Positions 8,513 to 16,911 of a stretch of 16,911 nt of DNA are shown piece after piece (position 1 is the first letter of the stretch; each line of letters opens with the position of its first letter). Under the pieces are notes generated by a model that was not told the DNA's origin, ran no database searches, and was given only the letters and a program-made list of their open reading frames with translations. This stretch comes from a virus. Lineage: Duplodnaviria > Heunggongvirae > Uroviricota > Caudoviricetes. The stretch is taken from IMG/VR virus record IMGVR_UViG_2872164251_000008; one strand, given 5' to 3'. A program made the translations under genes and the position numbers.

Positions 8513-9670
8513 TTAATCGTCGTCTTCCGGCAGTTCCAGAATCTTGATCGCGTTCGAATCCACCACGCCACCGCCTAAATATTTTTGCGTGAAAATTTTG
8601 ATGAATCCTGGTTCTGTCAGGTTGTCCGGTCTGGTGCGAACACCTGTTTCGTGATCAACAATGTAGTAACCGCGTTTGAAGTCACCCAGGGCAATAACGT
8701 TATCAGGCATAAACTCCAGATATTCGACCGGAAGGCCCAGCAACGTATCAGGATCACCCGCCTGTAAACGGTCGCGCCAGATATAATCACCGTTCGCGTT
8801 CTTCACCTTCTGAAGTTTTGCCGCCGTCGTGGAGTTAACCACCCAGACCGCGTTTTTGCGGTATTTTTTACGTAATGCAAATTTCAGGTCGATCAGCGGG
8901 TCCGCAGATGTCCACGCCAGAGATTCGGAAGGTTTAATTACCTGCAACGTACCAAAATCACGCTCTTTGTCGTTCTTCTCTGCACGGGGTACGGATAAAA
9001 AACCTTTTGCTTTTTTGTCACCGTCGCCCACAACCAGATCGCTTTCTTCGGTTTCCGTGAAGGTGTCGCCAATCTCACCCGTCAGCCATGAAAGGATGTC
9101 CACATCGGAAAAATCCACGATTTCCTGTGTGGTGCGCGGGTACGCATAGACCGGATACAGCTTAATGCTCACCTCGTTAATCTGCGGGGTGCTGGTCTGT
9201 TCGCGTGCCTTACCCTCTTCACCGTGGTTAACGGTCGCACCGCCAGCGGAAACAAGCTGCTTAAACTCGTTGCTGCTGATTTTCTTCACGGTACAGATGC
9301 GGCGCATAGTGGATTCATCCGCCAGCATTCGCATGATTTCGGTGTTCAGTTCAGGGATAACGGTATAACCACCATCAGCGGGAACGCCTGTACTTAATGC
9401 GCGGGTTTCACCGGTCAGAATGTAGTTGCGTAGTTCTGCGGGGTCAGTGGTCTGGCTGCTTTTACCTGGCTTGCTGCGCTCTTCGTCTGCAATGGCTTCA
9501 AGGCGGGAAATGTCTTTATCGAGGGATTCAGCTTTAGCGCGTAATTCGTCAAATTTTGCGCCCTCAGCATCGTTAAGACTGCGGTTTTCTTTTTCAGCGT
9601 TCTCCAGCATGTCGCGCATCTGATTTTTAATGGCGGTTTTCTGCTGGCGTAATTCGATTATTCTCTGCAT
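8513..9670 (-). CDS. major capsid protein, HK97 fold, with N-terminal coiled-coil (delta/scaffold-like) region
   Basis: ORF track 8513..9670 (385 aa). Charged coiled-coil N-terminus followed by a capsid-like body. AGGA Shine-Dalgarno 7 nt upstream of ATG. Confidence 0.9.
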   Translation of the reverse strand: MQRIIELRQQKTAIKNQMRDMLENAEKENRSLNDAEGAKFDELRAKAESLDKDISRLEAIADEERSKPGKSSQTTDPAELRNYILTGETRALSTGVPADGGYTVIPELNTEIMRMLADESTMRRICTVKKISSNEFKQLVSAGGATVNHGEEGKAREQTSTPQINEVSIKLYPVYAYPRTTQEIVDFSDVDILSWLTGEIGDTFTETEESDLVVGDGDKKAKGFLSVPRAEKNDKERDFGTLQVIKPSESLAWTSADPLIDLKFALRKKYRKNAVWVVNSTTAAKLQKVKNANGDYIWRDRLQAGDPDTLLGLPVEYLEFMPDNVIALGDFKRGYYIVDHETGVRTRPDNLTEPGFIKIFTQKYLGGGVVDSNAIKILELPEDDD

Positions 9671-9825
9671 AAAAAAGTCCTGGGGTTAAGTAAGGAACTC
9701 CAGGACGCGGCAAACACTCAACCGTTTTTCATAAGGAAATCAGTAATCGCACCGATCGTTTTCCCGCCTGGTAATGAATATTGGCGAGCACATTAACAGG
9801 CGGGAAAGTGGCCCCAGCGTCCTGG
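9671..9825 (-). promoter_or_regulatory. capsid operon 5' leader with terminator/antiterminator-like alternative pairing and a 17-bp-arm inverted repeat
   Basis: On the mRNA, GCGUCCUGG (9708-9700) can pair either with an upstream CCAGGACGC (9825-9817, 9 bp) or with the downstream CCAGGAC (9683-9677, 7 bp). The downstream arm contains the capsid Shine-Dalgarno and is followed by U6 directly before the AUG. A separate inverted repeat TTTCCCGCCTGGTAATG / CATTAACAGGCGGGAAA spans 9760-9807. Confidence 0.4.
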
Positions 9826-9861: not shown

Positions 9862-9930
9862 AAAATATGCCGATCCGCTCAGTGAACAACGTGGAACAAC
9901 CACGAACAAATAATTTACAAAAAATAACAA
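9862..9930 (-). promoter_or_regulatory. candidate capsid-operon promoter (-35 TTGTTC, 16-bp spacer, -10 TATTTT on minus strand) overlapping five phased TTGTTC-type repeats (9884, 9894, 9904, plus degenerate 9915, 9925)
   Basis: Direct reading. The promoter hexamers are weak matches and are not verified. Confidence 0.35.
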
Positions 9931-9950
9931 AAAGCCGGATTGCTCCGGCT
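9920..9950 (-). terminator. rho-independent terminator (AGCCGGA-GCAA-UCCGGCU then UUUUUGUUAUUUUUU)
   Basis: Perfect 7-bp GC-rich stem, 4-nt loop, U-rich tail on the minus strand. Confidence 0.65.
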
Positions 9951-9969: not shown

Positions 9970-10194
9970 TCAGTCTCTGATCCCTTTCAGAAATTCTATC
10001 AATGCATCTGTCTGTTCAGGATTTACTGCCAGCATTTCACCGGATAGCGCGCAACGAACAAAACCATGATGATCCTTTTCAATCAGCGCCCCCGTTTCCA
10101 GAAATGCGCGGTAATCAGTGATATTCATCGTCTCCATGTTGTCAGCATGGTATTTATCACGCTGTTTAAGTATCTCATCAAATTTCATCGGCAT
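9970..10194 (-). CDS. hypothetical protein (74 aa from MPMKFDEILK…), bracketed by two identical terminators
   Basis: ORF track 9970..10272. The internal ATG at 10194 has a GAGGA Shine-Dalgarno at 7 nt, whereas the first ATG abuts the terminator U-tract. Confidence 0.5.
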   Translation of the reverse strand: MPMKFDEILKQRDKYHADNMETMNITDYRAFLETGALIEKDHHGFVRCALSGEMLAVNPEQTDALIEFLKGIRD

Positions 10195-10285
10195 TGCGTT
10201 TTCCTCTGTTGTGTCTGTTTGTTTCAGATAGTAACTATGCCGGACCGTGACGAAAAGCCAGTAGTGCTCCATACCGTTTCAAATG

Positions 10286-10313
10286 ACGCAAAAAAAGCCG
10301 GATTGCTCCGGCT
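10286..10313 (-). terminator. rho-independent terminator, hairpin identical to the one at 9933-9950, followed by UUUUUUU
   Basis: Same 18-nt hairpin AGCCGGAGCAATCCGGCT followed by a T7 run on the minus strand. Confidence 0.65.
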
Positions 10314-10326
10314 TCGTGGTGTGGTT

Positions 10327-10497
10327 CTGATATTCCTACTCTGCTAATTTGCTCAGCCCCATGTCTGCGTAAGTGCGATTTACTGCATTTCTCAGGTCTG
10401 CGTAGTTCTCCGTTGGCGGCTCCGGTGTGCCCTTGCTGCTCTGTTTTACCAGCGGGTCGCCCACCAGCCGCCCGTAAGCTGCAATTTGTGCTGTCAT
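10327..10497 (-). CDS. hypothetical small protein (56 aa), not in the supplied ORF track
   Basis: Open frame found by hand: MTAQIAAYGRLVGDPLVKQSSKGTPEPPTENYADLRNAVNRTYADMGLSKLAE. ATG at 10495-10497 preceded by GAGGTGG. Fills the gap between the 101-aa ORF and the terminator. Confidence 0.35.
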
Positions 10498-11087: not shown

Positions 11088-11129
11088 ATTTATTTTTACC
11101 CCCTCGTTTAAAAAGTTTTGAGTTGTGCC

Positions 11130-11360
11130 TCCCCTTGTCTACCTTAGTGGCCCTCATGCCAGTAATGGCGCTGCTTTCAGCGGGGTAGAGTGCTTTTATC
11201 CACTATCTACCCCGTGTCTACCTCCCTGTCTGATTCAGGTAAAATCAGGTAGAGAGGGTAGATAGTGGGTAGACAGTAAAAAAAGGCTACCTACCTAACT
11301 TAATGCACTGAATTAAATGTATTTTTCTTTACTCAGGTAGATAGGGTAGACAGCAATTAC
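11130..11360. repeat. candidate replication origin: cluster of GGTAGA iterons in both orientations with interspersed AT-rich stretches, immediately 3' of the primase-helicase gene
   Basis: GGTAGA at about 11184, 11248, 11257, 11268, 11336, 11345. Inverted TCTACC at about 11138, 11206, 11217, 11287-11296. AT-rich runs at 11274-11285 and 11300-11330. Confidence 0.55.
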
Positions 11361-11366
11361 AAAAAA

Positions 11367-13115
11367 TTATAAAAACGCGTCGCACTCGTCTGTTGTTATT
11401 GCGTTAGTCTGCGTTACTCCCTTAACTTTCCGCGTAATATATTCATGTCCGTAAACTTTCGCGGCTGGCTTCATAGCCTTGCCAAAGTCATTTACGTTTA
11501 GCGGTTTGCTCCTGCCTGCGTACGCCATAAACGCCAGATAGACGCGGTAAAGGCTGTTTCTGGTCGTGTACTTCACTGAATCGCCACCGCCGCCCATCAT
11601 CAGGCCGCGTGCTTCCTCCAGAAAATTCAGGAACTGGCAAAACTCAATAACCGGATCCGTCTGTTGCTTTATTGCCAGAGCTTCATCACCGTCACGCTGT
11701 TCCAGTAGTAAAGCCCGTGCTTTCTCAGAGTCGGTAAAGTTCGCCAGCAATCGGCGGATAATGACAGGGATTTCAGCCGCAATCTTTTCCGGTAGCTCCC
11801 TGTCTTTTTCGGCCTCACTAACGATATTGTCGAAACGGAAAATCACGCGACGACGTGCCACACCTCCGGCCCGTTCGGTGAATATCATCGGGTTATTGTT
11901 GGTCGCCAGCACCACCGCCCTGATTACAGCCGTGAAACGCTTTTCGTATTTCGGGTTAATTTCCACGGGGTCACCGCCCGTGATTTTCTTGATGCCCGTT
12001 CCTTCGCCTGTATATTTCGGCTGGTCAGCCAGGACGATAAGACGACTCCCGACAACCTGCGGACGTCCACCAGCATCATCAAGCGATGTCATTTCAGCGC
12101 TTACCGTGTTCTGTTTCCCTGCCAGAAGGCTGGCTATGTGTGTGAATGTACTTTTACCGCTCCCGCCGTCTCCGGTGGCCTCAATAAACATCTGCCAGTC
12201 GTACCGGTTCGCCATAATCATGTACAGCGCGGCACATATACGCATCATCTTGCGCTGGTCTTTTCCGGCTGCGTGCTCAAGCCATTTATGAAAGTTTAGC
12301 GCGTTATCGCGGATGTTCTCCCCTGGTGCTGGTGGCGTGTACTCAATGCCGTTGTGCGTGGTGATCCAGTTCTCCGGCGTGTGCGGGGAAAATTCCCCCG
12401 TTTTCAGGTCAAGCGCACCATTGGCGAACGGCAGCAAATCGCCGGACGGCTCGCCCATTGGTTCGGCAATAACTTTTAACGCTTCCACGGCGTTATTGAT
12501 TACGCGCTTGCTGAAAGTGGCCCTGTGCTCTGAATAGATCGCCACCATTTCGCGGCTAAGTTCCATTGTGCTGACCGGACACCATACCCCGCCGCGCCAT
12601 ACGTGAACGATTTCACTTTCCTGATGCACACAAACGCCATCAAAGCGCTCGGCAAGCAGCTGCGCGCGCTCACTGTCTGCCATTTGTGCCAGTTGCGTAT
12701 TTTTCTGCTCCGGCATGGTAAGCCCTGCGGCAATATTTTCACGCTCAGCATTCAGATAGCGCCGCCAGTTTTCACACTTCTGGACGTGCATTCCTTCGGG
12801 GTAAAAATTTGCGTCCTGAATATCTGCCGCCGCCAGCTTCTGACCAATCTTTTTGGTCTCCACCAAATCCAGTTCTCCGGCCTGGTACAGCCTTACGCGT
12901 TTTTTTCCATCCGGAACAATTTTCAGTGCATCAAGTTCGGCAAGCTGATTTGGCCCAAGCCACACAGGCGGCACATTATCGCCGGATGCGGGGCCATCCT
13001 GCTCCTGCCATTGTTTCGCGTGCGACCAGGCATCACTACCCGCAAAGATAATTACCTCTGTGTCTTTGTGTTTTATTCCGCGTGGCTGTTTTTTTACGTT
13101 CGGTGCCAGTTTCAT
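11367..13115 (-). CDS. replication protein: primase/helicase-type P-loop NTPase (P4 alpha / D5-like C-terminal region)
   Basis: ORF track 11367..13115 (582 aa). Walker A motif GDGGSGKST. Overall layout typical of satellite/plasmid primase-helicase proteins. ATGA overlap with upstream ORF. Confidence 0.8.
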   Translation of the reverse strand: MKLAPNVKKQPRGIKHKDTEVIIFAGSDAWSHAKQWQEQDGPASGDNVPPVWLGPNQLAELDALKIVPDGKKRVRLYQAGELDLVETKKIGQKLAAADIQDANFYPEGMHVQKCENWRRYLNAERENIAAGLTMPEQKNTQLAQMADSERAQLLAERFDGVCVHQESEIVHVWRGGVWCPVSTMELSREMVAIYSEHRATFSKRVINNAVEALKVIAEPMGEPSGDLLPFANGALDLKTGEFSPHTPENWITTHNGIEYTPPAPGENIRDNALNFHKWLEHAAGKDQRKMMRICAALYMIMANRYDWQMFIEATGDGGSGKSTFTHIASLLAGKQNTVSAEMTSLDDAGGRPQVVGSRLIVLADQPKYTGEGTGIKKITGGDPVEINPKYEKRFTAVIRAVVLATNNNPMIFTERAGGVARRRVIFRFDNIVSEAEKDRELPEKIAAEIPVIIRRLLANFTDSEKARALLLEQRDGDEALAIKQQTDPVIEFCQFLNFLEEARGLMMGGGGDSVKYTTRNSLYRVYLAFMAYAGRSKPLNVNDFGKAMKPAAKVYGHEYITRKVKGVTQTNAITTDECDAFL

Positions 13116-15088: not shown

Positions 15089-15277
15089 TTAATGAACTGC
15101 CTTGCAGCTATCCTTCCAGGCCAGAACCTCGGATAAAGACCAGCCAACGGAACGACCGCCAAGTTTACGACGTGATGGGAATTGTCCGGCCTTTTCCAGG
15201 CGGTAGCGGCATGAGCGGCTAAGGCCTGTTAGCTTTTCGCATTCTTTTTCACGTATAAACCGATCAGTGCTTAACAC
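15089..15277 (-). CDS. alpA: AlpA/Vis-family phage transcriptional regulator (excisionase-like HTH), GTG start
   Basis: ORF track 15089..15277. Pattern …IREKECEKLTGLSRSCRYRLEKAGQFPSRRKLGGRSVGWSLSEVLAW… is characteristic of AlpA/Vis proteins. AGGGGG Shine-Dalgarno. Confidence 0.85.
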   Translation of the reverse strand: MLSTDRFIREKECEKLTGLSRSCRYRLEKAGQFPSRRKLGGRSVGWSLSEVLAWKDSCKAVH

Positions 15278-15328
15278 TATTGCCCCCTTTCGTTTCTTAA
15301 AGAGTTATTTCGTGTTCTATTGCGTTGG

Positions 15329-15357
15329 GATGTGTCTGATTGTGTCAGGATGATTCA
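15329..15357 (-). promoter_or_regulatory. candidate alpA promoter (-35 TTGCCA, 17-bp spacer, -10 CACAAT) with two GACACA direct repeats phased 10 bp apart over the -10 and start region
   Basis: Direct reading of the minus strand. Not verified. Confidence 0.35.
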
Positions 15358-15437
15358 GAGTTGGCAAATGTTGAGGCCGTATGGTTTACAGAAAGAGGAA
15401 TAATCAGGATAAAATCATTTAAATTCATGTTAATACA

Positions 15438-15468
15438 AAGGCATAAAATATTGTTTCATGCCTTTTTT
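15438..15468. terminator. terminator-like hairpin (AAGGCAT / ATGCCTT stem, 13-nt loop) with a T-run on the + strand; possible int terminator or end of an unannotated small transcript
   Basis: Direct reading. No ORF upstream on the + strand. Confidence 0.3.
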
Positions 15469-15560
15469 CTCGCTATTTAAAGAGTGATTCGCTAGTGTAT
15501 AAAAAACCAGTAAGACGTTAAAAATCAGCTACTTATAAATCTGTACACTTTTTCACCTCT

Positions 15561-15640
15561 TGTTCGTAGTTGTTCCGCATTGTTGCTCATTGTTGCTCAT
15601 TGTTGCTCATTGTTGCTCATTGTTGCACGTTGTATCTGTT
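15561..15640. repeat. eight tandem 10-bp units starting TGTT(C/G), including four perfect TGTTGCTCAT copies (15581-15620), between the int stop and alpA
   Basis: Direct reading. Exact 10-bp phasing. Confidence 0.85.
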
Positions 15641-15681
15641 CGCATATCCAGTATGCGCATACTGAAAAAACACGAAAAAAA

Positions 15682-16911
15682 TTATTTTCTTCTGGCTACT
15701 GGTAGCGTGGTTACGTTTTCATGTGTTCCCGCCAGTATCCCTAACCGCTCCGTCCACATATCCAGCGCATTGCGTTTAGCATCCAGATAACGGGAATGAT
15801 TATAAACTCGCTGCATTCCTGGCATCTGGTGGCCTGTAAGCTGCTCCACGACGTGAGGATCCACGCCTAAATCGTTCAGCATCGTTGTAAAGGTGCGCCG
15901 GATGTCATGTAGTGACCAGTGAGGGTGATTTAGCCTCCTGTGCGCTAATCTGCCGTACTGCGACACGCTTGTTTCCTGTTTCACTTCCCCCAGCAATAAG
16001 CCCGTGTGCCTGTTCTGCTCCACCAGCTGCGTGACGAACGGCAGTATTGCTTCCGGTATGGGCCGGAATATTGCCACCTTCGTTTTGCTGTGTTCTTTCG
16101 GCACGGTCCAGAGCATTTCGGTAAAATCCCACTCGCTGATCTCCGATAACCTCAGTTCTACCGTCCGGCATCCGAACACAATCAGGAGGCGGATTAACGC
16201 GATGTAGTAGGGGGAGAATATTTTTTTGTCCAGTGCCTGCAATAATTCGCCCAGTTCTTTGGTGCTTAAGACACGCTCGCTTATATCCGGTTTTTTCCCA
16301 ACGTCCGCCACACTCATATCATCAAGAACGTTGCTGATTGCATAGCGCCGCCTCCGGCAGAACTTAAGCGCCTGTTTGCACGTCTGTAGCAAGAATCCGG
16401 CAGTAACAGGCGTTCGCTTTGCCACCTGGTCAAAACAGGCCAGCCAGTGCCGTAGCTCGCATTTATCCAGCGGCATAGCACCAATGTGCTGTATTACGTG
16501 ATTATTAAGGCGCTTTTTCAGGGCGGCATAATCCACGCGGTTTTCCTTTGCGTACGACTCAAGCCAGTAGGTGAGCGCATCGCCAACCGTTACCGGCTTT
16601 AACGCTTCCTGTACGGTGTAATTAAGCTCATGACGTGGATTTTTCCCCTCTGCCAGCCATGCGCGACACTGGGCGGCTTTTTCCCTGGCTGATTTCAGGC
16701 TCAGATCAGGATAATTTCCCAGCTTAATGCGTTCCGGTGGTGCCCCCCTTCCCGTTCCGGCCCTGTAAGTGAAATACCAGGTTAAAAGGCCACTGGTTGA
16801 ATGCCTGACGCTCAGGTTTCCACCGTCATTAAGAAAGGCTGTTTTTTGGGCGGGTGTGCCGTTGATTTTCCTCAGCTGTGTATCGCTCAGTTTGTTAAGT
16901 GCTCTGCTCAT
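15682..16911 (-). CDS. int: tyrosine site-specific integrase, P4-type (N-terminal arm-binding domain plus catalytic domain); ATG is the last three bases of the window
   Basis: ORF track 15682..16911 (409 aa). Catalytic pattern …HDIRRTF… and …GHQMPGMQRVYNHSRY. N-terminal region resembles P4-family integrases. Confidence 0.92.
   Translation of the reverse strand: MSRALNKLSDTQLRKINGTPAQKTAFLNDGGNLSVRHSTSGLLTWYFTYRAGTGRGAPPERIKLGNYPDLSLKSAREKAAQCRAWLAEGKNPRHELNYTVQEALKPVTVGDALTYWLESYAKENRVDYAALKKRLNNHVIQHIGAMPLDKCELRHWLACFDQVAKRTPVTAGFLLQTCKQALKFCRRRRYAISNVLDDMSVADVGKKPDISERVLSTKELGELLQALDKKIFSPYYIALIRLLIVFGCRTVELRLSEISEWDFTEMLWTVPKEHSKTKVAIFRPIPEAILPFVTQLVEQNRHTGLLLGEVKQETSVSQYGRLAHRRLNHPHWSLHDIRRTFTTMLNDLGVDPHVVEQLTGHQMPGMQRVYNHSRYLDAKRNALDMWTERLGILAGTHENVTTLPVARRK

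What the first reader, a model, noticed from the sequence alone, without database searches (positions are those of the whole stretch)
15561..15640. Phased TTGTT(C/G) decamer repeats recur at three island loci, suggesting one regulator controls them
Eight tandem 10-bp units (four perfect TGTTGCTCAT) lie between int and alpA. The same hexamer at 10-bp phasing occurs upstream of the capsid operon (9884-9930, opposite strand, overlapping a candidate -35) and at the phoQ-proximal end (1579-1604). The latter two share a 15-bp identical core, AACAACGTGGAACAA. A weaker phased pair sits just upstream of the 74-aa gene (10209-10224). Xis/AlpA-type winged-helix proteins and integrase arm domains typically bind head-to-tail repeats one helical turn apart. 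AlpA acting as island activator at these sites is a testable hypothesis.
Basis: partly seen in the sequence, partly recalled or inferred. Interest (0 to 1): 0.65.

Follow-up and report, generated by a model that had tools for sequence, protein, structure and literature searches.

The report
Probable AlpA-binding decamer repeats in a PICI
A short DNA word (AACAA), repeated once per helical turn at several places in this E. coli phage satellite island, is real, conserved and most likely the docking site of the island's small AlpA protein; this is a familiar design for excision and regulator proteins of phages and satellites.

Summary
Eight 10-bp units lie at 15560-15639. Phased copies of the same decamer (consensus YRWGR-AACAA) lie at 1575-1604, 9880-9909 and 10209-10228, and nowhere else in the window (0.02-0.05 expected by chance).

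The window is an EcCIEDL933-type capsid-forming PICI between phoQ and roxA. In more than 70 related islands the int-alpA array has 5 or 6 units. The ACAA core is nearly invariant and the spacers vary across 20 variants. The window's eight units are a rare 30-bp slippage expansion of one unit.

The phoQ-proximal site lies in an att arm. A matching cluster sits in the int-proximal arm, beyond the window. Both are next to tandem 12-mers (ATTRACTACACC) that occur only in the arms and track the integrase N-domain clade, as the annotated arm repeats do in P4. The 12-mers are therefore the likely Int arm sites, and the decamers belong to a second protein.

That protein is most likely AlpA (PF05930; excisionase-like winged helix), acting as both excision factor and activator, as P4 Vis, 186 Apl and P2 Cox do. 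The replication-iteron and hypervariable-repeat readings are rejected. No binding data exist.

Verdict: new member of a known kind, moderate interest.

The parts
15560..15639 (-). Eight-unit phased decamer array. Read on the gene strand it is ACAGATACAA CGTGCAACAA (TGAGCAACAA)x4 TGCGGAACAA CTACGAACAA. It lies between the int stop and alpA.
   Evidence: The homologous 5-6-unit arrays in relatives keep an invariant ACAA core.
15580..15619 (-). Four identical copies of one unit (TTGTTGCTCA on the + strand). Three of them are a 30-bp tandem expansion specific to this window.
   Evidence: The alignment gap is exactly 30 columns against 5 relatives. The best E. coli genome hits span 131 bp for a 161-bp query. 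Only one IMG/VR contig has even two copies.
1575..1604 (+). Three phased decamers (TATGAAACAA CGTGGAACAA ATAGACACAA) in the phoQ-proximal att arm.
   Evidence: Identical in all related islands, including those at tqsA and cspD.
1538..1561 (+). Tandem 12-mer pair ATTGACTACACC ATTAACTACACC, the probable integrase arm-type sites.
   Evidence: TRF period 12. Exact ACTACACC occurs only here in the window. Every island has one pair per arm and none elsewhere. P4 has annotated tandem 12-bp attP arm repeats in the same layout. The 12-mer type follows the Int N-domain clade.
1455..1469 (.). Left island junction (att core, ...AAATATGTCC).
   Evidence: Genomes without the island match the phoQ flank only up to window 1469. 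The same AAATATGTCC lies at the roxA-side junction in EDL933.
9880..9909 (+). Three phased decamers upstream of the capsid operon. They read TTGTTCGTGG TTGTTCCACG TTGTTCACTG on the gene strand, and the last unit forms the candidate -35.
   Evidence: Conserved in cf-PICIs.
9862..9889 (-). Candidate capsid-operon promoter: -35 TTGTTC (9889-9884), 16-nt spacer, -10 TATTTT (9867-9862).
   Evidence: Read from the sequence. The hexamers are invariant in 5 cf-PICIs, but the whole region is 96% identical, so this is weak support. The consensus scanner did not call it.
10209..10228 (-). Two phased decamers (TCTGAAACAA ACAGACACAA) immediately upstream of the ribosome-binding site of the 74-aa gene (9970-10194).
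   Evidence: Not in the training set of the matrix. Conserved wherever the gene is present (L001, L004, L006, L007, L010).
15310..15349 (-). Degenerate phased units CCTGACACAA TCAGACACAT CCCAACGCAA TAGAACACGA, overlapping the -10 and the early transcribed region of the predicted alpA promoter.
   Evidence: The homologous CFT073 stretch passes the matrix threshold (L013 16243-16272).
15339..15367 (-). Predicted alpA promoter: -35 TTGCCA, 17-nt spacer, -10 CACAAT preceded by TG.
   Evidence: Scanner hit. TTGCCA-17-MACAAT is kept in six diverse islands.
15089..15277 (-). alpA (62 aa), the proposed binding protein.
   Evidence: PF05930 Phage_AlpA, E = 5e-18. The model (pLDDT 87) best matches the GIsul2 excisionase 8C3T, then RdfS and TorI.
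15682..16911 (-). int, a P4-type tyrosine integrase with an Arm-DNA-bind_3 N-domain.
   Evidence: Identical to the EDL933 island integrase.
15437..15468 (.). Conserved hairpin flanked by an A-run and a T-run (bidirectional-terminator-like), between the array and the alpA promoter.
   Evidence: Fold energy is -13.8 kcal/mol (z -3.4) on the gene strand and -10.3 (z -2.4) on the + strand.

Best explanation
The decamers (5'-YRWGR-AACAA-3', one per helical turn, all in one orientation within a cluster) are most likely the operator sites of the island's own AlpA protein. AlpA is a 62-residue excisionase-type winged-helix protein.

By analogy with lambda Xis, P2 Cox, 186 Apl, P4 Vis and RdfS, I infer that AlpA protomers bind cooperatively head to tail along one face of the DNA and bend it. 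The proposed roles at each site are:

- att arms: 3 units in the phoQ-side arm and 4 units in the int-side arm, each next to the integrase's tandem 12-mer arm sites. Here the AlpA filament would build the excisive intasome (the recombination-directionality function).
- int-alpA spacer: 5-6 units in most islands, 8 here. The array would be the high-affinity platform for the known positive autoregulation of alpA. It probably acts at a distance of about 220 bp, possibly helped by an IHF-like site and the degenerate promoter-proximal units.
- Capsid operon: three units abut or form the -35, in a class-II-like activator position. This would switch on the packaging module once AlpA accumulates.

Shown: the sites exist, are non-random, are conserved with variable spacers, are island-specific, and are independent of the Rep type. 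AlpA has an excisionase fold. The published AlpA-responsive fragment contains the array.

Inferred: that AlpA is the binder, and what binding does at each site.
For: Non-randomness.

Selective conservation: in a motif-independent alignment of six diverse spacers, the AACAA columns are invariant while the 5-nt spacers vary. Twenty distinct arrays from more than 70 loci keep ACAA (information 1.8-2.0 bits, against 0.25-0.5 in the spacer positions).

Specificity: across 12 E. coli loci, each with 10-17 kb of chromosomal flank, clusters fall almost only inside islands, at the same homologous places.

Two-motif att arms:
- The 12-mers occur only as one pair per arm and match the layout of P4's annotated arm repeats.
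- They change on both arms together with the Int N-domain in the tqsA-type islands, while the decamers and AlpA stay identical.
- P4 and EcCIMP1 share an Int N-domain clade and a C5/G5 12-mer, but have different AlpA/Vis proteins and different second motifs.

AlpA identity: PF05930; fold closest to an excisionase (8C3T), RdfS and TorI.

Published biology:
- AlpA activates a PalpA-lacZ fusion and, when overexpressed alone, triggers Int-dependent excision and replication (PMC6092414).
- I mapped that fusion to L013 16132-16587, which is the entire spacer including the array.
- alpA overexpression alone is used to produce EcCIEDL933 capsids.
- RdfS binds attP and its own promoter.
- The PICMI AlpA is proposed to be part of the excision complex.
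Against: - There are no binding data for any protein.
- RDF sites on both att arms are unusual, and the phoQ-side cluster lies distal to the 12-mers rather than between them and the core.
- The big array is about 220 bp upstream of the conserved alpA promoter, with a terminator-like hairpin in between. Its orientation relative to the downstream gene is opposite to that at the capsid promoter.
- Two clusters (10209-10228 and 15310-15349) overlap or follow the predicted -10, where binding would repress rather than activate.
- The published Pint fusion, mapped approximately to L013 17245-18092, includes the int-side arm clusters, yet AlpA had no effect on it.
- Islands with related AlpA (57-66% identity: L014, L015, L087) keep the arm decamers but have no array upstream of alpA.
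- Covariation between AlpA and the decamer could not be tested sharply. Every array-bearing island fetched has the same recognition helix apart from two conservative substitutions in L008 (S22T, L27M).
Confidence: 0.6

Rival explanations
1. The decamers are arm-type sites of the integrase N-terminal domain. Int would also use them as internal operators, for example for autoregulation or to couple recombination with gene expression.
For: The clusters lie in both att arms, as integrase arm sites do. Lambda P'1-P'3 are also adjacent direct repeats (my own knowledge). Int has an Arm-DNA-bind_3 domain. P4 Int represses its own promoter.
Against: A separate motif already fits the arm-site role. The tandem 12-mers occur only in the arms, lie at P4-like positions and follow the Int N-domain clade. 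The decamers are unchanged in the tqsA-type islands, whose Int N-domain is only 80% identical. Most decamer copies lie at internal sites far from att.
Confidence: 0.1
2. The int-alpA array is the cis-element through which a helper-phage protein (a Cox- or Xis-like winged-helix protein) or a host factor switches on alpA. This would parallel P2 Cox binding three tandem 10-bp boxes upstream of the P4 late-left operon, whose first gene is vis.
For: P4 has three tandem 10-bp TTAAAG repeats upstream of vis; that these are Cox boxes is from my own knowledge, with the citation seen. The helper-encoded inducer of alpA was still unknown in 2018. Excisionase crosstalk between a helper and a PICI has been reported. 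Lambda X1 (TATGTTGTGT) shares TGTTG with the array units.
Against: The same motif sits in both att arms and at internal promoters of the island, which points to an island-encoded protein. AlpA alone activates PalpA and drives excision without any phage. Helpers are diverse, yet the motif is constant. The resemblance to lambda Xis sites is only 5 bases.
Confidence: 0.1
3. Another island-encoded DNA-binding protein recognises the decamers, such as one of the small uncharacterised proteins, DUF4222 or PerC.
For: Several small conserved ORFs have no assigned function. The link to AlpA is by elimination and analogy only.
Against: Among the islands fetched, only Int, AlpA and DUF4222 appear in the gene tables of all array-bearing islands; I did not run a systematic gene-sharing comparison. 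perC and ssb are destroyed by a deletion in this window. DUF4222 is also present in EcCIMP1, which lacks the motif. None of these has a known role in excision, which the att-arm sites imply.
Confidence: 0.1
4. The decamers are replication iterons for the island's primase/helicase, like the GGTGAACAG type-1 repeats of P4 ori and crr. In P4 those elements lie upstream of vis and next to attP.
For: The P4 type-1 iterons resemble the decamer (GTGAACA). P4 ori and crr occupy analogous positions.
Against: The islands carry three unrelated Rep types. Each has its own iterons just downstream of rep: TGTCTACC for the primase type, TAACCCGCA for DUF927, and AAAGTGGG or AAAGTGAG for RepA. The AACAA clusters are the same in all of them.
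Confidence: 0.02
5. The array is only a hypervariable simple-sequence tract or a chance feature with no function.
For: The window has three extra perfect copies of one unit, and one other contig has one extra copy. Slippage therefore does occur.
Against: The copy number is 5 or 6 in 64 of 65 IMG/VR loci (the exception may be cut by a contig end) and 5-6 in all fetched E. coli genome loci. The core is conserved and the spacers diverge. The motif recurs at four or more other conserved loci.
Confidence: 0.03

Closest known systems
Phage P4 Vis (AlpA-family excisionase and late-promoter regulator) with the P4 attP arm repeats
   Same: Both are satellites with a P4-type integrase. Both have tandem 12-bp arm repeats on each side of the core. 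In both, the AlpA/Vis gene is the first gene of the leftward operon. Vis is 47% identical to this AlpA. From my own knowledge of Cali et al. 2004 and Polo et al. 1996, with citations seen, Vis binds between int and the core and also regulates promoters.
   Different: The motif differs. In P4 the stretch between int and the core shows phased GGA-type repeats, read by eye. Vis represses Pint, whereas EcCICFT073 AlpA did not affect Pint. P4 has no 5-8-unit array of the same word downstream of int. This island also makes its own capsid, and the capsid promoter carries the motif.
Coliphage 186 Apl and P2 Cox (dual-purpose RDF and transcriptional regulators)
   Same: Both use direct repeats 10-11 bp apart, with 5 sites at att and 7 at the pR-pL switch. 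Binding is cooperative and needs at least 3 adjacent sites. The same word is used at att and at distant promoters. The RDF is the first gene of the early operon.
   Different: Apl and Cox mainly repress face-to-face lytic and lysogenic promoters. Here the published effect of AlpA is activation, sites occur on both att arms, and the main array is far from the promoter.
RdfS of ICEMlSym(R7A), and BldC
   Same: Both are small winged-helix proteins that oligomerise head to tail with one protomer per DNA turn. RdfS binds attP and its own promoter. RdfS is among the structural neighbours of the AlpA model.
   Different: RdfS shows no clear consensus motif and uses an extra N-terminal helix to form filaments. 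Here the motif is sharp (invariant ACAA).
P2 Cox boxes upstream of P4 PLL (helper-to-satellite signalling)
   Same: Three tandem 10-bp repeats lie upstream of the satellite's vis/alpA gene.
   Different: Those boxes are recognised by a helper protein and are not found in the P4 att arms. Here the word is shared with the island's own att arms.
Pseudomonas aeruginosa AlpA antiterminator and its ABE
   Same: Only the name.
   Different: That protein has DNA-contact residues numbered up to 142 and a Q-like fold. It binds a single GGGACG element between -35 and -10 and enters the RNA exit channel. It is not the PF05930 family and is not relevant here.

Membership tests
RDF / excisionase operator arrays (Xis, Cox, Apl, Vis type) | Direct (head-to-tail) repeats spaced one helical turn (10-11 bp) apart | tested here: met
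   Exact 10-bp phasing and a single orientation within each cluster.
RDF / excisionase operator arrays (Xis, Cox, Apl, Vis type) | Three or more adjacent sites, as cooperative binding requires | tested here: met
   There are 8 units (5-6 in relatives), 3, 3 and 4 units at the main loci. Only the site at the 74-aa gene has 2.
RDF / excisionase operator arrays (Xis, Cox, Apl, Vis type) | Sites inside the att region next to integrase arm-type sites | tested here: met
   Window 1575-1604 lies next to the 12-mers at 1538-1561. In L001, 17672-17711 lies between the 12-mers and the core.
RDF / excisionase operator arrays (Xis, Cox, Apl, Vis type) | For the dual-function subgroup: the same word also at promoters away from att, and the RDF gene first in its operon | tested here: met
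   There is an array upstream of alpA, and sites at the capsid promoter and the 74-aa gene. alpA is the first gene after int.
RDF / excisionase operator arrays (Xis, Cox, Apl, Vis type) | Bound and bent by the cognate RDF protein | not testable with these tools
   This needs EMSA, footprinting or ChIP.
AlpA / excisionase winged-helix protein family (the proposed binder) | Pfam PF05930 match above the gathering score | tested here: met
   65.2 bits against a cut-off of 21.
AlpA / excisionase winged-helix protein family (the proposed binder) | Winged-helix excisionase fold | tested here: met
   The model has pLDDT 87. TM-score is 0.79/0.86 to the GIsul2 excisionase 8C3T; RdfS and TorI are also hit. 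Foldseek E-values are weak because the protein is small.
Integrase arm-type sites | Confined to the att arms | tested here: not met
   Most decamer copies are internal. The 12-mers, by contrast, are arm-only.
Integrase arm-type sites | Sequence follows the integrase N-terminal domain | tested here: not met
   The decamers are identical in islands whose Int N-domain is 80% identical, while the 12-mers change. The 12-mer type follows the Int clade across P4, EcCIMP1 and this group.
Replication iterons | Located at the origin and covarying with the initiator protein | tested here: not met
   Rep-specific iterons lie downstream of rep. The decamers are constant across three Rep types.
Hypervariable simple-sequence (contingency) tract | Copy number differs widely among close relatives | tested here: not met
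   Relatives have 5 or 6 units in 64 of 65 IMG/VR loci and 5-6 in all fetched genome loci. Only the window (+3) and one contig (+1) are expanded.
Capsid-forming PICI (context) | int-alpA-rep module plus its own capsid, protease, portal, connector, HNH and terminase genes, at a PICI att site | tested here: met
   Gene order is that of EcCIEDL933, and Int is 100% identical to the EDL933 island integrase. The capsid matches Pfam.

The most novel reading that the evidence does not exclude
The int-alpA array may not be a conventional upstream activating site. It could be a sensor or threshold device for satellite induction, in one of two ways.

(i) It could be the landing pad for a helper-phage winged-helix protein (Xis- or Cox-like). 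That protein would nucleate a filament on the AACAA word and hand over to AlpA autoactivation. This would answer the open question of how helper phages switch on alpA in Gram-negative PICIs.

(ii) It could be a decoy array that titrates basal AlpA. Unit number (5, 6 or 8) would then set the induction threshold.

The adjacent LexA-box-like element (15636-15651), which is absent from EcCICFT073, could add an SOS input.
Probability: 0.12. Interest if true: 0.7.

Novelty: new member of a known kind. Interest (0 to 1): 0.4.

Why it matters
AlpA is the master switch of Gram-negative PICIs, but none of the papers I could search describes its DNA target.

A defined AlpA box (N5-AACAA at 10-bp phasing) would tie three known AlpA phenotypes to one protein-DNA code. 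Those phenotypes are excision, autoactivation, and capsid production in cf-PICIs. The box has a map of five to six sites: both att arms, the int-alpA spacer, the capsid promoter, the 74-aa gene and the alpA promoter.

The map gives precise mutagenesis targets for the still-open question of how helper phages induce alpA. It also separates the likely integrase arm sites (the 12-mers) from the likely RDF sites, which helps define attP for these widely distributed islands and for engineered PICI vectors.

Tried and rejected
- Rfam scan of the window: no RNA family, so there is no support for an RNA element.
- Replication iterons: rejected, because the real iterons covary with Rep and the decamers do not.
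- P. aeruginosa AlpA/ABE antitermination model: rejected, because it is a different protein family.
- PhoP box (the island sits next to phoPQ): rejected. The PhoP repeat is a different word with 11-bp phasing (my own knowledge), and the islands also sit at tqsA and cspD.
- A + strand promoter fired by the array into antisense int: every candidate -10 lacks the final T, and the scanner found none. Dropped.
- Array-adjacent gene-strand promoter (-10 TATAAG, about 15531-15536, with GAACAA at about -40 to -35): possible but unsupported. It is weakly conserved and absent in CFT073. Left open.
- Search for AlpA relatives in GTDB genomes: only 3 loci.
- AlpA homologues at 57-66% identity (L014, L015, L087) keep the arm decamers but lack the array. 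They therefore gave no sharp test of covariation between AlpA and the motif. L089 (AlpA 64% identical) had no phased 5-mer chains in the de novo scan, and I did not inspect its att arms.
- The capsid-upstream alignment is 96% identical throughout, so it says nothing about selective conservation there.
- A search for PDB entry 8C3T found no paper.

Full report
**Context.** The window runs from phoQ (1-1461, +) into an island whose genes are all on the - strand. In order from the far end these are int (15682-16911; the window ends at its start codon), alpA (15089-15277), small genes, a D5-type primase (11367-13115), an origin region, then capsid (8513-9670), protease, portal, connectors, HNH and terminase. 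The int-alpA region occurs in 733 of 5426 complete E. coli genomes. One of them is O157:H7 EDL933, where the island lies between phoQ and roxA with the same gene order. That island is EcCIEDL933, the prototype capsid-forming PICI. Its integrase is 100% identical to the window's. Genomes without the island match the phoQ flank only up to window 1469, which places the left junction (core ...AAATATGTCC) there.

- 15560-15639 holds eight 10-bp units, four of them identical.
- TTGTTS-N4-TTGTTS occurs 8 times against 0.02 expected.
- I built a weight matrix from the decamers (read as N5-AACAA) and required at least two units exactly 10 bp apart. It finds only four places in the window: 1575-1604, 9880-9909, 10209-10228 and 15560-15639. 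Shuffles give 0.05.
- The 10209 pair was not used to build the matrix, so it is an independent hit.
- The 15-bp identity AACAACGTGGAACAA between 1580-1594 and 9885-9899 is correct.

**Conservation.**
- In eight other E. coli islands the int-alpA array has five units: TTGTTCGTRG TTGTTCCRCR TTGTTGCTCA TTGTTGCACG TTGTATCTGT. These islands include both cf-PICIs and classical PICIs, at phoQ/roxA or tqsA. EcCICFT073 has six units.
- A MAFFT alignment of six diverse spacers, made without reference to the motif, shows the AACAA columns invariant and the intervening bases variable. It also shows a gap of exactly 30 columns opposite the window's three extra units.
- Of 65 IMG/VR loci with AlpA at least 89% identical, 42 have five units and 22 have six. 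One has three, which may reflect a contig end.
- Pooled with the genome loci, there are 20 distinct arrays. Information content is 1.8-2.0 bits at the ACAA positions and 0.25-0.5 bits at spacer positions 1-3 and 5.
- Only one other contig has even a duplicated TGAGCAACAA unit. The best E. coli genome hits span 131 bp for a 161-bp query.
- The array is therefore a stable, selected element. The window's eight units are a rare slippage expansion of one unit.

Across 12 E. coli loci, each with 10-17 kb of chromosomal flank, matrix clusters fall almost only inside islands, at homologous positions. The positions are the phoQ-side end, the int-alpA spacer, the capsid upstream region (cf-PICIs only), the 74-aa gene where it is present, and a four-unit cluster upstream of the int start, in the int-proximal att arm beyond the window's end. 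A degenerate phased set (CCTGACACAA TCAGACACAT ...) overlaps the predicted alpA promoter at 15310-15349. The CFT073 homologue of that set passes the threshold.

**Two motifs in the att arms.**
- Each arm carries a tandem 12-mer pair, ATTRACTACACC x2 (window 1538-1561), followed by the decamers.
- The 12-mers occur only as one pair per arm in every locus, and nowhere else in about 32 kb.
- The phage P4 record annotates tandem 12-bp 'attP arm sequence repeats' on both sides of its core, at similar distances.
- In the tqsA-type islands the Int N-domain is only 80% identical and both arms' 12-mers change together (ATTA to AGTG). The decamers and AlpA are unchanged.
- P4 and EcCIMP1 have related Int N-domains (61% identical) and related C5/G5 12-mers next to the int start. 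Their AlpA/Vis proteins and their second arm motifs differ.
- These observations assign the 12-mers to Int and the decamers to a second protein.

**Which second protein?**
- AlpA matches PF05930.
- Its model (pLDDT 87) is closest to the GIsul2 excisionase 8C3T (TM-score 0.79/0.86, 39% identity). RdfS, TorI and MerR-type winged helices follow.
- AlpA activates a PalpA-lacZ fusion and, expressed alone, causes Int-dependent excision and replication of EcCICFT073. It did not affect Pint (PMC6092414).
- I mapped the published primers. The AlpA-responsive fragment is L013 16132-16587, which is the whole int-alpA spacer including the six-unit array. The Pint fragment (about 17245-18092, from fuzzy primer matches) includes the int-side arm clusters.
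- alpA overexpression alone is used to produce EcCIEDL933 capsids, so the capsid operon is downstream of AlpA, directly or indirectly.
- The wider literature states that RDFs bind tandem repeats one turn apart, cooperatively, with at least 3 sites needed. [quoted passage not shown]
- RdfS binds attP and its own promoter. The PICMI AlpA is proposed to be part of the excision complex.
- The decamer map coincides with every place where AlpA is known or expected to act.

**Anatomy of the int-alpA spacer, read on the gene strand**:

| Feature | Window coordinates |
|---|---|
| int stop | 15682 |
| 16-bp palindrome | 15649-15664 |
| LexA-box-like CTGT-N8-CCAG | 15636-15651 |
| Decamer array | 15639-15560 |
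| IHF-like YAANNNNTTGATW (one mismatch; perfect in CFT073) | 15523-15535 |
| Conserved hairpin with flanking A- and T-runs | 15437-15468 |
| Predicted alpA promoter (TTGCCA-17-CACAAT, conserved in six islands) | 15367-15339 |
| alpA start | 15277 |

- The array is about 220 bp upstream of the predicted promoter.
- Any activation from it must work at a distance, by bending or looping, or through an unmapped promoter.

**Capsid operon.** The three units read TTGTT toward the gene, and the last unit forms a candidate -35 (TTGTTC, 16-nt spacer, TATTTT). This is a class-II-like position. The region is too conserved overall to confirm the promoter.

**Rivals.**
- Integrase arm sites: disfavoured for the reasons given above.
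- Replication iterons: the decamer resembles the P4 type-1 iteron GGTGAACAG, and P4 ori and crr sit in analogous places. However, the islands carry three unrelated Rep types, each with its own iterons downstream of rep (TGTCTACC; TAACCCGCA; AAAGTGGG or AAAGTGAG). The decamers do not change.
- Hypervariable tract: refuted for the array as a whole.
- A helper-phage or host factor acting at the array, following the precedent of P2 Cox at P4 PLL: this cannot be excluded. It is less likely because the word is shared with the island's own att arms and because AlpA alone suffices.
- The P. aeruginosa 'AlpA' antiterminator is an unrelated, larger protein.

**Limits.**
- There are no binding data.
- Every array-bearing island I fetched has the same AlpA recognition helix apart from two conservative substitutions in L008 (S22T, L27M), so covariation between AlpA and the decamer is untested.
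- Islands with AlpA at 57-66% identity keep AACAA-like arm units but lack the array.
- Some sites overlap transcription starts, where binding would repress.
- Decamers occur on both arms, which is unusual for an RDF.

**Verdict.**
- The AlpA hypothesis is the best-supported mechanism (about 0.6), with the amendments above.
- This is a new member of the well-known class of dual RDF/regulator operator arrays.
- It is useful mainly because it gives PICI biology a concrete, testable AlpA box and a separated map of Int and RDF sites.

Noticed in passing
window 15636-15651 and 15649-15664: A LexA-box-like element, ATCTGTTCGCATATCCAGTA, resembles the uvrB SOS box as I recall it (not checked against a sequence here). 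It abuts the last array unit and overlaps a perfect 16-bp palindrome, CAGTATGCGCATACTG. The CTGT-N8-CCAG pattern is kept in four island lineages while its middle varies, and it is absent from EcCICFT073. The pattern alone is not significant in the window (1 hit against 0.77 expected).
   Followed up: partly
window 15523-15535 (- strand): An IHF-consensus-like site (TAAGTAGCTGATT, one mismatch to YAANNNNTTGATW) lies just downstream of the array. The CFT073 homologue, TAACCATTTGATT, is a perfect match. It could bend the array toward the alpA promoter.
   Followed up: no
window 15437-15468: A conserved hairpin with an A-run on one side and a T-run on the other looks like a bidirectional terminator. 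It separates the array from the alpA promoter. CFT073 keeps the stem through a G-U change.
   Followed up: partly
window 1972-2008: Four GTCAC words lie 10-11 bp apart (TTGTCACGGTG TGTCACTGG TTGTCACTCTCC GTCACG) in the non-coding stretch beyond the last packaging gene. They may be a cos or small-terminase recognition element.
   Followed up: no
window 11088-11366: This is the probable replication origin. Multiple TGTCTACC / GGTAGACA iterons lie just downstream of the primase gene. Related islands with DUF927 or RepA-type initiators carry different iterons at the same position (TAACCCGCA; AAAGTGGG or AAAGTGAG).
   Followed up: yes
window 10336-10497: A 53-aa ORF fuses the first 24-25 residues of the island SSB to the C-terminal part of PerC. 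A deletion has therefore removed most of ssb and perC relative to EcCIEDL933, and this copy of the island may be partly defective.
   Followed up: yes
window 9671-9706: A stable hairpin (GTCCTGG...CCAGGAC, -14.7 kcal/mol, z -2.75) followed by T6 lies immediately before the capsid ATG. It sequesters the AGGA ribosome-binding site. It looks like an attenuator or translational control element at the end of a roughly 185-nt leader.
   Followed up: partly
window 9933-9950 and 10294-10315: The same terminator hairpin (GCCGGAGCAATCCGGC plus a T-run) occurs twice on the gene strand. The two copies flank the 74-aa gene, which makes it an insulated single-gene unit.
   Followed up: no
L016 (E. coli MP1, EcCIMP1) 27250, 28573, 28636; 28532-28555: EcCIMP1 has a distant AlpA (34% identity to this one by BLASTP) and a P4-like Int. 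It has tandem 12-mers (ATGGGGGTAYTT) next to the int start. A different second word, TACTAAAGT, occurs twice in that arm and once just after the int stop. This hints that reuse of an att-arm word in the int-alpA spacer is general.
   Followed up: partly
L002/L003 (islands in tqsA) versus L001: Islands with identical AlpA and 97% identical Int C-terminal halves integrate at a different site (tqsA, core TGCTGTTAT). They differ mainly in the first ~110 Int residues (80% identity) and in the first four bases of every arm 12-mer.
   Followed up: partly
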